Assembly (NCBI GenBank): GCA_951406725.2
Contig: OX597818.1
Coordinates: 92,194,001-92,258,000, forward strand
Source of the DNA: Octopus vulgaris
Lineage: Eukaryota
DNA: 64,000 nucleotides
Direction of reading: 5' to 3'
This document shows positions 42,001 to 57,000 of the stretch, piece after piece. Made by a program: the position numbers. How positions within the stretch are numbered: position 1 is the stretch's first letter; each line of letters starts with the position of its first letter.

Positions 42001-45000
42001 AGCATTGGGCCCTATTTAGAGGTAATTATTGGGTTTGTGCATAATTATTGTGGTTTTGTTTTTTCAACAAATTTTATTCAGCAAAAACAATAACAATTTT
42101 TAACAAAAACATCTTTAAATGACGGTCTGACCGTCTGCCAAGCAAATAGGAACCAGCAATTGAAGTAGTTGGTGAATAATGTTTTTGTTACATGTTGTTA
42201 TAGTTTTTGCTGAACAAAATTTGTTGAAAAAAGAGCCGCAATAATTATGCACCAACCCAATATAAAAGCATCCAGCCTTCCTCTTTTAATTCTTTTTCTA
42301 TTGAATAATAATTTCTAGCATTGGTTTGAAACCAGGATTTTGTGAGTAACGAAATCAAGTCATATAAATTTATAAGAATATAGGACAATTTTAACCAACC
42401 TGAAGGAGGGAAAGAATAATGAAAGAAAACGTAGAGAAAGAATGAAAAAGTTATGAAGTATGTGAATCCAGAAGTGTGAACGGATGTTACTGAATATTAT
42501 TAAGTATTGGATTCAATACTATCATTTCTCGTAAGGTTTCAATATAATCTAAAAATTCTATTTTTCCTTTATATTTACTAACTTTTTCATGTGTTCAGTG
42601 TATGCACAAAATTCAAGATGCCTATCCAACACACAAGTTAATGGTACAGTAAGACAATGTTCCAGAATTTGGTCACGCCAGTTACATGCAATTATATTAG
42701 ATGAACCACCACGGGCACAAAAGTACAAGAGAACATGCAGGTAAGTAGTTTGCGTTTTTATTCTTACAATGGTTCTTCAAAAACTGCAATTTATGCAGGC
42801 GCACACACACACACATTTTCTTAGATAAATATGTTTCCACTATGTCATGTCTAACTTAATAGCCCACCCTACCGGCGAGCTAGCAGAGTCGTTAGTATGT
42901 CGATTAAAATGTTTAGTGGCATATTGTCTGTCGACTTTTTAACTGTTGACTTTTTAACCTTTCAAGGTCGATAAAATAAGTACCAGTTAAGCCCTAGGGT
43001 CAATGTTGTCGACTTACCCCATCCTCAGAATTGCTGGCCTTGTGTGCCTGTGTTTGTACCCCCAACATCGCTTGACAACCGATGCTGGTGTGTTTACGTA
43101 CCCGTAACTTAGCGGTTCGGCAAATGAGACCGATAGAATAAGTACTAGGCTTACAAAGAATAAGTCCTAGGGGTCGATTTGCTCCACTAAAGGCGGTGCT
43201 CCAGCATGGCCACAATCAAATGACTGAAACAAGTAAAAGAGTAAAGAGTAAAGAGACTGATGCAGTAGAATCCTCATATTTTCTATGCGTATTTAAATTG
43301 AAAACTAAACATTCTCTCGAAATCTACACATCACGCTTCTTGTTTATATTTTAGAATCCTGAAAGACTATCGGAGTTGTCTATCACATGGTATCCAGCGA
43401 TTCTGTTCCAAAGGTGCTGCACATGTCATGGTAAAGATGTGGGATTTATCATTAGCACCGTTTCGAGAGAAAATGATGTGTGATGAAAGTAAGTAAACAA
43501 ATTATTTCCTGTTCTATTGCTATTGTTACTGGTATCCTAAAAAATAAAAGTTTTTTTCGAAATTGAAACTCATTTTTATTACATTCTTTCGATGCTCAAC
43601 CGTGTGAGTACTGTGGGGGATTTTCCTCTCTGTGTGCTCCATGCATGAGAACAGTGTTTGCTTAATTTTCCCTTTTTTCTGTACTTTCGAGCGTTCTACC
43701 GTCTAGTGTGTTTACCGTGCACAGAAAGGTTACTTTCGCATATTGTGTATATATGTGATCGTTTGGTTTTTGTTATACATTTTTCTACATAATTCATTGA
43801 ATCATTTCCATTAAATCATTATCGGCGCTGTATCAATAGGTGTTCGAAGTTTCCATGATTCACGTGTGGGTAACTTTTTCAGAAGTTTCCTCATAGTCAA
43901 TCCACGTTATACTCAGATCATTCTTTCCTTAGTGGAGGCGCATGGCCTAGTGGTTAGAGCAGCGGACTCACGGTCGAGGGATCGCGGGTTCGAATCTTAG
44001 ACCGGGTGATGTGTGTGTTTATGAGCGAACCCTACACCTAAGCTCCACGTGTCTCCGGCAGAAGGTAATGGTGAACTACTGTTGACTCTTTCGCCACAAC
44101 TTTCTCTCACTGTTTCCACCTGCATCTTGCATCTCACCTGCGACGGACCGGCGTCCCGTCCAGGTGGGGAATTTCTACGCCACTGCAACCGGGAAACCGG
44201 CCCTTATGAGCCTGGCATGGCTCGGGAAGGAACATTCTTTCCCTACGTTCATTTATAATTATTTTCTTGATTCTTACAGTTACGTGAACTTTTGTAGTAT
44301 CCTTTCTGCACTTCTAAAAATATGTAATTTATTTGTTCAGTTATACATTTTATCTGTCTGATAGATCTTTGAAAGTTCTAAGGCAAGTTACTAGCCTGTA
44401 ATCTTAAGGTCTGCTGATTCATTTTCTGTTCACTATTTTTCTGTAAGGAGATTCCATTTCCTATAACTGCCACAAGACTAGTTAGAGGTCCGGGTGTCAC
44501 TGCTTCTTACAGTAATATTTTGAAATTTTGAGAGTTGTCTCCCTTGCAACATGTGAGTCTAAATCTTATAAATAACGAATTATTCCAAATGTTATGGTTA
44601 CAGTTCTTTAAAACGTTTCTTTCTTAACACTTGAAGTAAGGAAACGTCCACTTAGGTATGTATTCCCTATTCAGGAGACACAATGTACATGTAATAATAA
44701 TAATAATAATAATAATAATAATAATCGTTTCAAATTTTATCACAAGGGCAGCCATTTTGTGGGGAGGTATTCAGCCGATTATATCGACCGCAATGTTTAA
44801 TTGGTACTTACTTTATAGACCTCGAAAGAATGAAAAGCAAAGTTGATCTCGGCAATATTTGAACTCAGAATGTAAAAACGAACGAAATGCCGTTAAGCAT
44901 TTTCACAGGCGTGTTAACGATTCTACCAGCACGCCGCCTTTAAATAATATTAATAATAATCTTTTTTAATTGATCACAAGTGCTGAACAAAAAACGAAAA

Positions 45001-54000: not shown

Positions 54001-57000
54001 AGGTAAGTACTGTAAATCCTCGAGTATAGTTTGCCATTGAGTATAATACGCATGGGATTTTTAGGGGGCTGTACCTCTGAAAAACCTAAACCTTGTGTAT
54101 AATACGCACCCCTTGTCTAACTTGAGTCAAGGAGGTCTGTATAACGTCTTTAGTTTGTAAAAATGTATACGATAACGTCCTTTATTATTATTGTATATAT
54201 AACCTAATGCAAACGTGTAGCTTTTTTGTGCATTTTGTTTGCAGAAAATAAAGAAATAACAGTAATAACGTTTAATAAATGTTGCTTACTGCAAGTTATG
54301 AATGATTCTTTTATGACATCATTGCTTTCAAGCTTAGGTTAAGGTATTTTCGCGCCCGACATCACAAAATGCATCTGAATAAACATTGCCGGACAGCAAA
54401 TAGAGACTCGGACATTGCCTAGAAAATAATTTTTATTTTTAACCTAGTATATAGTACGCACTAGGGATTTTGGCCTTTAAATTTTGGGGAAAAAATGCGG
54501 ATTATACTCGAGGATTTACGGTATGTAACCAACTTCCGAAAAATTCTAATTCATAATTAATATTAATTTGCATTTTATGTATATTTCATTTAGCGTAACA
54601 ACAAGCAACTAATAAACGTTTCTTTGAGATCTTGTTAAATTTCTTTCCGATTTTTAAACAGAATATTTTTTAAAAGCGTAGTTTAGTTGTAATTTAAATT
54701 TATAGTTTTAACAACACCCAACTCGATTTCGGTGAGAAATAATGTTTTACCTCGTTTTTCTTTTTTTTTTTTTTTTGTGCTATCAACTAATCTCATCTTC
54801 TAATATACTGCCAAGACTTTCTTCCACTGAAATCAGTGTGGGGTGGGCCCTCGGAATCCTCCACTCACCTCGTTTTTTTTTTTGTTTCGTGTTTTTTTTT
54901 TTTTTTTTCGTGTGCTATCAACTAATCTCGGCTTCCAGTATACTGCACGTGAAGTTGACAACACCATTCATTCTCGAAAGAGAAATGCAACCGAGACGGA
55001 AAACGGGACGTTGTTTTGGTGATAACGAGAAGCTGGAGGAGCCATGATGTGTAATACCACCACACATTCGTGGGTTAACGAATGAGTGTAGGTGAGATGA
55101 AACAGCGACAGACAGTTGTTTAAACAGATATCTCGTAGACGTTTGGTGATACAATCTGCTAACATATGGTCGATTTGCTCAATATAGAAGAGAGCCCTTC
55201 ATTTTCAACTCTCTCTCTATCTCTCTCTTTCTTTCTCTCTCTCTCTCTTTCTCTCTCTCTCTCTCTCTCTTTCTCATTTTCTATTTTTCGTTTCCTTCCT
55301 CCTTTCTCATGTGTCTACATTTCTTTATCTCTCTTTCAAGCTTTATGTTTCATGTATTCTTTCTAATTATCAAACTTATGTATTTGTTGCAGAAATAGGA
55401 GCTGGCCTGGTTGTTGCTGTAATCCTGGGAGTCTGTTGCTTCGTCTTAGTTGCTATCTTCATAGTCTGCCTCATGCGTCGGCGTCAACTACAATCTATAA
55501 GTTACAAAAGGTTCACAGATATCACGGCTCAGCCGAGCATTGTACCACCAGAATCTCATTTCCCTACTATTGCAGCACATGCTCTCAGACAAGAAGACCC
55601 AGCAAGAACGAATGACCTTTTATAAGAAAAAAAATATACAAAAGGGAAACGAAAAAGAAAGCAGGAACAAGATATCAAAATAAAAGACAATAATAACAAT
55701 AATAATATTAACAATAATAATAATAATAAGATTGATTTTTTACATATTGATAATAACATAACTTTGATATTAACAACATCATCACATTTATCTTTGTGCA
55801 TTGGGATAGCTTTTTATTTTTTGTGTATGCATGTGGAGGTTTATACGACTACGTGTATGTTTTCTAATTAGGTACGTGTGAGTGGTGTGTATCCCTGAAT
55901 GAGTGCCTCTGTGTTAGCGCTAATATATGAGAATATGCTTTTTATGTGGAGATCAACAAGAATGGATGCTTAAACGTTAATATCTAAGATGTGATGGATG
56001 AATGATATGGTTATATGATAAGGTTATATCAATTGGAAAATGGGTACATTCCCATTGAAGTTTTTATATGCCAATGAGTTATTGCGGGATTCCTAAATTT
56101 ATCCGTTTACCATAACACACACACACACACTATCACCGCCACCACCACCAATACATAAGCATATATGTACATTAGATTAAGCGCGTGGTATAGGTAATGC
56201 TTACATTATAGATTTACTTCTTTTGCATAATCTTAATCAATCTATATACCAACCTACATACATACATACATACATACATACATACATACATACATACATA
56301 CTTACATACAACGCAGGGATGCTGTAGAACAGCAGAAATGTTGGGTAAATTACCCTTACAAAGCGGAAAAGGTTGTCAGCAAATCTTTGCTTATATTTAG
56401 ATACACGTCATTGTACATTTAGCTTTATAGCGTCTAAAACTTCGGATTAATTCGGGCAGTTTAGCTTAATGGTAAAACACTTGGCCGGAGTCTTTAATGG
56501 ATGTGGATTCATGACCCATAGCTGTTTGTTGATAAACTTTTCCGCTTCGTAAGGGTAATTTTTCTAATATTTCTGCTGTTCTAACGGCGTTTCTGCGTTC
56601 GAAAATAAATTATCATCTTATTTGTATTGTACAATATACATTTCGATGCTTACTAATTTGGTAATGTTATATATATATATATATATATATATAAATATAT
56701 ATATGTATATACATATAGATAGATAGATAGATAGATAGATAGATAGATAGATAGATAGATAGATAGATAGATAGATAGATAGATAGATAGATAGATAGAT
56801 AGATAGTATATATATATATATATATGTTTCAAAAATTTAACAAAAACACAACAAACTAAAATTTCACAAGAATATAAACAAAAAACCTCGTAGCTAATTC
56901 CTCATCAGTCAACGTCCAAACGATCATTACAATTTCACGCCTTTGACGTTAATATTGTTCACTTTTGGAGGAGCCAGTAGCAAAAAACTCACTGGAAATA

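What the first reader, a model, noticed from the sequence alone, without database searches (positions are those of the whole stretch)
43355..55625. One Cys-rich ectodomain with three alternative membrane-anchor exons (TM-YQKF, GPI-like, TM-YKRF)
Seen: exon D ends in phase 1, and three downstream segments (49540, 52147, 55393) each have an AG acceptor in phase 1, an open frame and their own stop. T1 and T3 are both TM, then RRR, then YxxF (YQKF, YKRF); this suggests exon duplication with a retained tyrosine-based sorting motif. T2 ends in a hydrophobic tail without a cytoplasmic part. T1 is too short for the ORF track and would be easy to miss. Inference: alternative last-exon choice switches the same ectodomain between two endocytosed TM forms and a GPI-anchored form, as in NCAM-type anchor switching.
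Basis: partly seen in the sequence, partly recalled or inferred. Interest (0 to 1): 0.7.

Follow-up and report, generated by a model that had tools for sequence, protein, structure and literature searches.

The report
Two alternative membrane-anchor exons, third unsupported
An uncharacterised octopus cell-surface gene seems to end in either of two anciently duplicated exons, giving a long or a short tail inside the cell; the proposed third, lipid-anchored ending looks like a chance open frame.

Summary
Exon D (43355-43488) ends in phase 1. T1, T2 and T3 each follow an AG, read open in that phase and have their own stop.

The gene is Octopus LOC106883123, an uncharacterised 282-aa type I membrane protein (P0001). 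Its annotated last exon is T3.

T1 is a real paralogue of T3:
- tblastn of P0001 against the window gives E 1e-5 for T1.
- Its acceptor tract is among the 3 best of 619 AG sites.
- AATAAA overlaps its stop.

A relative's protein, P0003, ends in a T1-type tail, and P0002 ends in a T3-type tail. Their ectodomains are 164 of 176 identical, yet their tails are only 17 of 45 identical. That is the pattern expected from conserved alternative last exons. No octopus T1 transcript was seen.

T2 is at chance level. 44 of 619 sites give at least 55 open codons. It has no homologue, only an average acceptor, and no AATAAA or ATTAAA within 1.5 kb.

The ectodomain is an all-helical, 12-cysteine domain that scores below threshold for Pfam CPG4 and DUF19.

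Verdict: partly supported. This is an ordinary kind of isoform switch, and the GPI form is not supported.

The parts
32837..32969 (+). Coding exon 2 of the gene (ALINDLRRCDPNN...TLEDIC-G); start of the mature Cys-rich ectodomain
   Evidence: tblastn of P0001 residues 21-70. Splice sites ...accag| and |gttagt read.
39229..39359 (+). Coding exon 3 (KMDKVKECIENKKPWMEHC...LCGEGYD)
   Evidence: tblastn of P0001 residues 68-113. Acceptor gtgcag| and donor |gtaagc. One substitution against P0001 (D for N).
42599..42740 (+). Coding exon 4 (YAQNSRCLSNTQVNGTVRQC...KYKRTC); holds the one N-x-T sequon, NGT
   Evidence: tblastn of P0001 residues 113-161. Acceptor gttcag| and donor |gtaagt.
43355..43488 (+).
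   Evidence: One substitution against P0001 (G for S).
49540..49682 (+). T1: proximal alternative last exon. A 9-residue linker, the TM helix AIIAGVLSFLLVLIIGLCFL, RRR, then a 15-residue tail. Stop at 49680-49682.
   Evidence: Paralogous to T3 (tblastn E 1e-5). Best window match of the P0003 C-terminus (E 1.3e-6, 19 of 40 identical, aligned to the last residue of both). Acceptor tract 17 of 20 pyrimidines, one of 3 of 619 sites with at least 17. Not found in any representative protein of 82-2000 aa.
49678..49683 (+). AATAAA overlapping the T1 stop codon; candidate proximal poly(A) signal
   Evidence: sequence.
52147..52313 (+). Judged a chance open frame, not part of the gene.
   Evidence: No similarity to the P0001, P0002 or P0003 tails (local scores 17-20). 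Acceptor 12 of 20 pyrimidines. No AATAAA or ATTAAA within 1.5 kb after the stop. 44 of 619 sites give frames as long. Not repeated elsewhere in the window.
55393..55625 (+). T3: distal, annotated last exon. TM helix, RRR, then a 46-residue tail ending ...RTNDLL. Stop at 55623-55625.
   Evidence: 100% identical to the C-terminus of P0001. 58-60% identical to the P0002 tail and to the T3-like ORF P0004.
55679..55684 (+). First AATAAA after the T3 stop; candidate distal poly(A) signal

Best explanation
The window holds most of an Octopus gene, LOC106883123 in O. bimaculoides.

**The protein.** It is a type I membrane protein made of:
- a signal peptide, whose exon 1 was not found in the window;
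- an all-helical ectodomain of about 180 residues with 12 cysteines, distantly like Pfam CPG4, DUF19, DUF1397, neuritin and RGM_N domains;
- one TM helix;
- a cytoplasmic tail.

**The two endings.** After the last ectodomain exon (D, phase 1) the transcript can end in either of two anciently duplicated exons.
- T3 (distal, annotated) gives a TM helix plus a 49-residue tail. The C-terminal block FP[ST]IA.HALR.EDP.RTN[DE]L[LY] is conserved in the 3 T3-type tails compared.
- T1 (proximal, 5.9 kb upstream of T3) gives a different TM helix plus an 18-residue tail that lacks that block.

**How the choice would be made.** It would be an ordinary competition between two outcomes: splicing to T1 with cleavage at the AATAAA that overlaps its stop, or skipping T1 to reach T3. 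The switch therefore changes the membrane helix and removes or adds the conserved cytoplasmic module. It does not change the kind of anchor. T2 is a chance open frame in the intron.

**Shown:**
- the exon map;
- T3 as the annotated end;
- T1/T3 homology and shared phase;
- T1-type and T3-type ends on near-identical ectodomains in a relative.

**Inferred:**
- that octopus itself uses T1;
- the poly(A) coupling;
- any sorting role of the tyrosine.
For: 1. The T3 peptide retrieves one protein, P0001, at 100% identity. P0001 maps to exons at 32.8, 39.2, 42.6, 43.4 and 55.4 kb with canonical splice sites.
2. The P0001 tail also hits T1 (E 1e-5). Both exons start in phase 1 and share the layout TM-RRR-6 residues-Y.
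3. T1 has the best class of acceptor tract, 17 of 20 pyrimidines; only 3 of 619 sites reach 17. AATAAA overlaps its stop.
4. P0003 (249 aa) ends in a T1-type exon. The linker length is the same (9 residues), there are the same 15 residues after RRR, W is at -2 and the last residue is basic. Its best window match is T1 (E 1.3e-6), against E 0.002 for T3.
5. P0002 (277 aa) ends T3-type (E 4.6e-24 to T3).
6. The P0002 and P0003 ectodomains are 164 of 176 identical, yet their tails are 17 of 45 identical. Each ectodomain is 137-138 of 176 identical to octopus.
7. The tail tree splits {T1, P0003} from {T3, P0002, P0004} with support 93/91. The exon pair is therefore older than the species split, while the ectodomain is shared.
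8. tblastn of P0001-P0003 finds no second ectodomain copy between exon D and T3. T1 therefore has no other upstream partner in the window.
Against: - No octopus protein with T1 was found: 0 hits among proteins of 82-2000 aa. This is weak, because only cluster representatives are searched.
- No RNA data could be consulted, so the junction 43488>49540 is unobserved.
- P0002 and P0003 carry no source names. They differ at 12 of 176 ectodomain positions, so they come from two taxa, two alleles or two recent paralogues. They are not shown to be isoforms of one gene.
- On the 45 shared columns T1 is only slightly closer to P0003 (19) than to the T3-type tails (16-18). TM segments also inflate similarity scores.
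- A retroelement fragment lies about 90 bp after the T1 stop (49770-50085).
Confidence: 0.68

Rival explanations
1. Only T3 is used in octopus. T1 is an unused duplicate (pseudo-exon) that happens still to be open.
For: The only annotated protein found uses T3. No protein with T1 was found. A transposon fragment sits just 3' of T1. The Yxx-hydrophobic motif is not kept in the T1-type tail of P0003, which has YKRS.
Against: The T1/T3 split predates the divergence from the P0002/P0003 lineage, and over that divergence the selected ectodomain has changed at 22% of residues. A neutral 46-codon segment of that age would not be expected to keep all of the following: an open frame, an exact tail length, RRR, Y, W, a top-class acceptor and a stop-overlapping AATAAA. 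This is inference, not a measured rate.
Confidence: 0.2
2. One reading: three alternative last exons, with T2 giving a GPI-anchored form (NCAM-type anchor switch).
For: T2 ends in a 16-residue hydrophobic stretch with no cytoplasmic part, and C/S residues lie 11-13 positions upstream that could serve as an attachment site (motif rules recalled). It is the only non-repetitive one of 46 frames with such an end. By a crude hydropathy rule, 14 of 51 distant relatives of the ectodomain have GPI-signal-like ends and 18 of 51 have TM plus tail. Both anchor types therefore occur in this superfamily.
Against: T2 has no similarity to any tail of P0001-P0003 (scores 17-20). The near-length search for P0001 relatives returned only T3-type and T1-type proteins, 3 of 3 hits. 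The acceptor is average at 12 of 20 pyrimidines, close to the mode of the 619 sites. No AATAAA or ATTAAA lies within 1.5 kb of the stop. Frames this long arise at 44 of 619 sites. A SINE-like repeat starts right after it.
Confidence: 0.05
3. T1 is the last exon of a different or former neighbouring paralogue, not of this gene.
For: P0002 and P0003 are not identical in the ectodomain (12 of 176 differ), so two loci in that lineage cannot be excluded.
Against: In the window T1 lies between exon D and T3, on the same strand and in the same phase. No other ectodomain-like exon is found anywhere in the 64 kb with P0001, P0002 or P0003 as queries. Paralogues as old as the T1/T3 split should differ in the ectodomain at least as much as octopus does from P0002 (22%), not by 7%.
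Confidence: 0.05

Closest known systems
NCAM1 isoforms (TM 140/180 kDa versus GPI-linked 120/125 kDa). Search listing and abstract of PMC2290859 seen; the exon details are recalled.
   Same: One ectodomain has alternative 3' exons that decide how, and with what cytoplasmic part, the protein sits in the membrane.
   Different: In NCAM one alternative is a GPI signal. Here the two supported alternatives are both TM helices with tails of 49 and 18 residues, and the GPI-like candidate (T2) has no support.
CD160 GPI and TM isoforms. Titles and abstracts of PMC10870674 and PMC13682303 seen in the listing only.
   Same: A small surface protein whose anchor and tail are changed by alternative splicing.
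   Different: The same difference as for NCAM. The ectodomain fold is also unrelated: immunoglobulin-like in CD160 (recalled) against all-helical here.
Pfam CPG4 (PF15481, C. elegans chondroitin proteoglycan 4) and DUF19 (PF01579)
   Same: Cys-rich helical extracellular domain. P0001 matches CPG4 at E 2.4e-5 over residues 41-134 and DUF19 at E 5.5e-4 over 38-190. 30 of 44 aligned relatives match CPG4 and 19 of 44 match DUF19 at E<=0.01. The Atlas feature search also points to CPG4, DUF1397 and DUF19 clusters, with scores of 0.78-0.83, which count as leads only.
   Different: P0001 is below both curated cut-offs (25.2 against 32.7 bits; 20.2 against 23.2 bits). The named families are mainly nematode and arthropod proteins by the Atlas taxa. 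No function is known for the domain.
Neuritin (PF15056) and the RGM N-terminal domain (PF06535). Both are GPI-anchored vertebrate proteins; their anchoring is recalled.
   Same: 11 of 44 relatives match NRN1 and 9 of 44 match RGM_N at E<=0.01. The family profile's only PDB sequence hit is RGMA chain 4uhy_C, at E 0.43.
   Different: P0001 itself has no NRN1 or RGM_N match at E<=0.01. The PDB hit is not significant. The Foldseek search of the model found no match at E<=0.001, 0 of 322 listed.

Membership tests
Alternative last exons (skipped terminal exon type) | Shared upstream exons followed by two or more terminal exons, each with an acceptor in the right phase and its own stop | tested here: met
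   Exon D is phase 1. T1 and T3 (and, trivially, T2) have AG, an open frame and a stop. Taken alone this is not above chance.
Alternative last exons (skipped terminal exon type) | Each terminal exon is followed by its own poly(A) signal | tested here: met
   Met for T1 (AATAAA at 49678) and T3 (AATAAA at 55679). Not met for T2, which has none within 1.5 kb. Only the two canonical hexamers were searched.
Alternative last exons (skipped terminal exon type) | Transcripts that join the common exon to each terminal exon | not testable with these tools
   No RNA reads or cephalopod nucleotide collections were available. Indirect evidence only: P0001 carries the D>T3 junction, and relatives P0003 and P0002 carry T1-type and T3-type ends. 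No protein with the octopus T1 was found.
NCAM-type TM/GPI anchor switch | One alternative exon encodes a working GPI attachment signal | tested here: inconclusive
   T2 has the right shape on paper, with a hydrophobic 16-mer at the C-terminus. It has no homology, PAS or acceptor support. No GPI predictor was available.
Pfam CPG4 (PF15481) | Score at or above the curated gathering cut-off (32.7 bits) | tested here: not met
   P0001 scores 25.2 bits, E 2.4e-5. Four distant relatives pass: P0008, P0031, P0033 and P0047.
Pfam DUF19 (PF01579) | Score at or above the curated gathering cut-off (23.2 bits) | tested here: not met
   P0001 scores 20.2 bits and P0003 22.0 bits. P0009, P0033 and P0041 pass.
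Tyrosine-based Yxx-hydrophobic sorting signal (definition recalled) | Y-x-x-bulky hydrophobic residue in the cytoplasmic tail, several residues from the membrane | tested here: met
   YQKF in T1 and YKRF in T3, each 7 residues after RRR. The Y is conserved in 5 of 5 tails and YxxF in 4 of 5, since P0003 has YKRS. Adaptor binding and endocytosis were not tested.
Type I single-pass membrane protein | N-terminal signal peptide, extracellular domain, one TM helix, cytoplasmic C-terminus with positive-inside residues | tested here: met
   P0001 has a hydrophobic N-terminus, 12 ectodomain Cys, a hydrophobic segment at 205-236 followed by RRR, and model helices at 3-30 and 205-250. No signal-peptide predictor was run.

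The most novel reading that the evidence does not exclude
T2 is, after all, a real third terminal exon giving a GPI-anchored form. One cephalopod gene would then toggle the same helical Cys-rich ectodomain between two different TM helices and a lipid anchor. Its superfamily relatives (CPG4, DUF19, neuritin and RGM-like) are each fixed as TM, GPI-like or secreted; a crude count gives 18, 14 and 19 of 51.

A weaker but likelier version: the T1/T3 swap is conserved because the two TM helices themselves select different partners in the membrane.
Probability: 0.05. Interest if true: 0.5.

Novelty: new member of a known kind. Interest (0 to 1): 0.27.

Why it matters
The main gain is for annotation. 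The proximal last exon T1 appears to be missing from the annotated protein found for this locus, and the comparative evidence says it is probably functional.

Biologically, this would be one more case of alternative last exons changing the membrane helix and cytoplasmic tail of a surface protein. Here the gene belongs to an uncharacterised, invertebrate-rich family of Cys-rich helical domains whose members use TM, GPI-like or no anchors.

It also shows that 'AG + phase + open frame' alone cannot nominate alternative exons in long, AT-rich cephalopod introns. About 7% of the AG sites tested (44 of 619) give 55 or more open codons.

Tried and rejected
- **Pfam on single exon peptides** (8 peptides, E up to 10): no domain family. 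The only hits were weak TM-segment look-alikes (TM_ErbB1, E 0.005-0.015) for T1 and T3.
- **Exon 1 of P0001** (signal peptide): not found in the window. The best tblastn hit, at 13926-13964, lies in a GT/AT microsatellite and was rejected.
- **DNA-level self-comparison:** T1 and T3 share no blastn match. T2 is not repeated in the window.
- **Structure:** the model of P0001 is confident (mean pLDDT 86.4). Foldseek against PDB gave 0 matches at E<=0.001, best E 0.92. The PDB profile search gave one non-significant hit, RGMA at E 0.43. No fold assignment is claimed.
The 7 members of its cluster, which could include isoforms, were not seen.
- **Literature searches:**
  - LOC106883123: 0 papers.
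  - DUF19 + neuritin: 0 papers.
  - The mixed family terms gave nothing relevant.
  - 'DUF19' alone was swamped by DUF19xx names.
- **Spliced models:** Whole-protein work used the database protein P0001.
- **Collections:** Conservation of T1 and T2 at the DNA level stayed unchecked.
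Full report
**1. The observation**

The four segments are as described.
- Exon D (43355-43488) has a ttttag acceptor and a gtaagt donor. It reads ILKDYRSCLSHGIQRFCSKGAAHVMVKMWDLSLAPFREKMMCDE and leaves one base over, so it ends in phase 1.
- T1 (from 49540), T2 (from 52147) and T3 (from 55393) each follow an AG, stay open in that phase and end at their own stops: 49680-82, 52311-13 and 55623-25.
- T1 and T3 both read TM helix, RRR, six residues, then YQKF or YKRF.
- T2 ends in VVLPTIVIIFATITYI with nothing after it.

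Between exon D and T3, 619 AG sites can be read on in phase 1. Of these, 87 give at least 40 codons and 44 give at least 55.

**2. What the gene is**

- The T3 peptide, searched alone among longer proteins, found one protein at 100% identity: P0001, 282 aa, 'uncharacterized protein LOC106883123 [Octopus bimaculoides]'.
- tblastn of P0001 on the window gives five exons: 32837-32969, 39229-39359, 42599-42740, 43355-43488 and 55393-55625. All have canonical splice sites.
- Apart from residues at the alignment ends that lie across splice junctions, the mapped residues differ from P0001 at 2 positions. The window is therefore Octopus, either that species or a very close one.
- The first coding exon (signal peptide) was not found in the window.
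- The annotated last exon is therefore T3.

**3. T1**

- The P0001 tail also matches T1 (E 1e-5 in the window). There is no DNA-level match between T1 and T3, so the duplication is old.
- T1's acceptor tract has 17 of 20 pyrimidines. Only 3 of the 619 sites reach 17.
- AATAAA (49678-49683) overlaps the T1 stop.
- No representative protein of 82-2000 aa contains T1. This is weak evidence, for two reasons. Only cluster representatives are searched.

**4. Relatives**

A near-length search with P0001 found two unnamed proteins.
- P0002 (277 aa) ends in a T3-type exon: E 4.6e-24 to T3, 58% identity, including the block FPSIAEHALRLEDPVRTNELY.
- P0003 (249 aa) ends in ...DGLMSGTENAIMAGALSFIFVLSIALCFIRRRMPGSVSYKRSCLPWR.
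  - Its best window match is T1: E 1.3e-6, 19 of 40 identical, aligned to the last residue of both. The match to T3 has E 0.002.
  - It shares with T1 the linker length, the 15 residues after RRR, a W at -2 and a basic last residue.

| Comparison | Identical positions |
|---|---|
| P0002 vs P0003, ectodomain | 164 of 176 |
| P0002 vs P0003, tails | 17 of 45 |
| Octopus vs P0002 or P0003, ectodomain | 137-138 of 176 |

- A five-row tree of the tails separates {T1, P0003} from {T3, P0002, P0004} with support 93/91. It rests on few columns, and the identity margins are small: T1 matches P0003 at 19 of the 45 shared columns and the T3-type tails at 16-18.
- A nearly shared ectodomain with anciently diverged ends is what a conserved pair of alternative last exons predicts. 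Old paralogues should differ throughout.
- No second ectodomain copy exists in the window.
- P0004 is a 178-aa read-through ORF over a T3-like exon in a third source. It shows T3-type conservation only.

**5. T2**

- T2 has no similarity to any of the tails, with local scores of 17-20.
- Its acceptor is average at 12 of 20 pyrimidines.
- No AATAAA or ATTAAA lies within 1.5 kb of its stop.
- It has no copy elsewhere in the window.
- A SINE-like repeat starts about 20 bp after its stop.
- Its one notable feature is the hydrophobic end. Of 46 distinct frames of at least 40 codons, 3 end that way, and 2 of those are isoleucine- and leucine-rich, largely simple-repeat frames.

I take T2 for a chance frame, with about 0.05 probability that it is real.

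**6. The ectodomain**

- P0001 matches Pfam CPG4 (E 2.4e-5, 25.2 bits against a cut-off of 32.7) and DUF19 (E 5.5e-4, 20.2 against 23.2). Both are below threshold.
- A full scan of representatives found 51 proteins at E<=0.001, most of them 18-28% identical.
- Of the 44 aligned (A1), the numbers matching each family at E<=0.01 are:

| Pfam family | Matches (of 44) |
|---|---|
| CPG4 | 30 |
| DUF19 | 19 |
| DUF1397 | 14 |
| NRN1 | 11 |
| RGM_N | 9 |

- Twelve cysteine columns are invariant or nearly so.
- The AlphaFold model is all-helical and confident, with mean pLDDT 86.4, and the last 25 residues disordered.
- It has no PDB match by Foldseek, best E 0.92. By sequence profile it has only RGMA at E 0.43.
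- Atlas feature hits point the same way, at lead-only scores of 0.78-0.83.
- By a crude hydropathy rule, 18 of 51 relatives have TM plus tail, 14 have a GPI-signal-like end and 19 have neither. P0004 and P0036 were left out, and P0010 and P0029 may be misclassed. Anchor type therefore varies between genes of this superfamily. That raises the prior for a GPI form a little, but says nothing about T2 itself.

**7. Mechanism**

This is most likely ordinary alternative last-exon use. Either the transcript is spliced to T1 and cleaved at its stop-overlapping signal, or T1 is skipped and T3 is used.

The products differ in two respects:
- the TM helix;
- the cytoplasmic part: 18 residues, against 49 with a conserved C-terminal block ending TN[DE]L[LY].

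The juxtamembrane tyrosine is kept in 5 of 5 tails and YxxF in 4 of 5. A sorting role is plausible but untested.

**8. Limits**

- No RNA data, cephalopod genomes, GPI predictor or signal-peptide predictor were available.
- The papers cited for NCAM and CD160 were seen only as search listings and abstract starts. The details about them are recalled.

**9. Verdict**

T1/T3 is a probable conserved isoform switch of a known kind. T2 and the GPI form are not supported.

Noticed in passing
window 47518-47636 (-): Full-length 5S rRNA match (RF00001, 95.8 bits, model 1-120 of 120) inside the intron between exon D and T1. It is flanked by an (AT/TA)n microsatellite and a SINE-like repeat. It could be a dispersed 5S gene, a pseudogene, or the head of a 5S-derived SINE.
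   Followed up: partly
window 49770-50085 and 890-1212; also 49997-50233 (-): A retroelement 3' fragment lies about 90 bp after the T1 stop. It is 73% identical over 328 bp to the end of the long ORF at 1-975, which has a sub-threshold zf-RVT match.
   Followed up: partly
window 20188-20763 (+): 192-aa open frame with a sub-threshold reverse-transcriptase (RVT_1) match, E 6e-5. Probably a decayed LINE.
   Followed up: partly
window about 31370-31610, 47800-47960, 52330-52480, 59290-59410 and others: The ORF listing shows recurring SINE-like units with the translated motif ...[24 protein letters not shown], followed by (TA/CA)n tracts. One copy starts right after T2.
   Followed up: no
T3 tail, window about 55530-55622: The C-terminal block of the long tail is conserved in P0002 and P0004 (FP[ST]IA.HALR.EDP.RTN[DE]L[LY]) and ends at the C-terminus. 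The model shows it as disordered. It may be a short linear motif for a cytoplasmic partner.
   Followed up: no
P0004 (database protein): P0004 is a 178-aa ORF that reads through a T3-like exon from its intron. It has W where octopus has the stop, so it is probably an artefact of ORF calling on genomic DNA or of another genetic code setting.
   Followed up: partly
window 59912-60615 (-): Two adjacent open frames of 109 and 121 aa look transposase-like by eye. They have no Pfam match at E<=0.001.
   Followed up: partly
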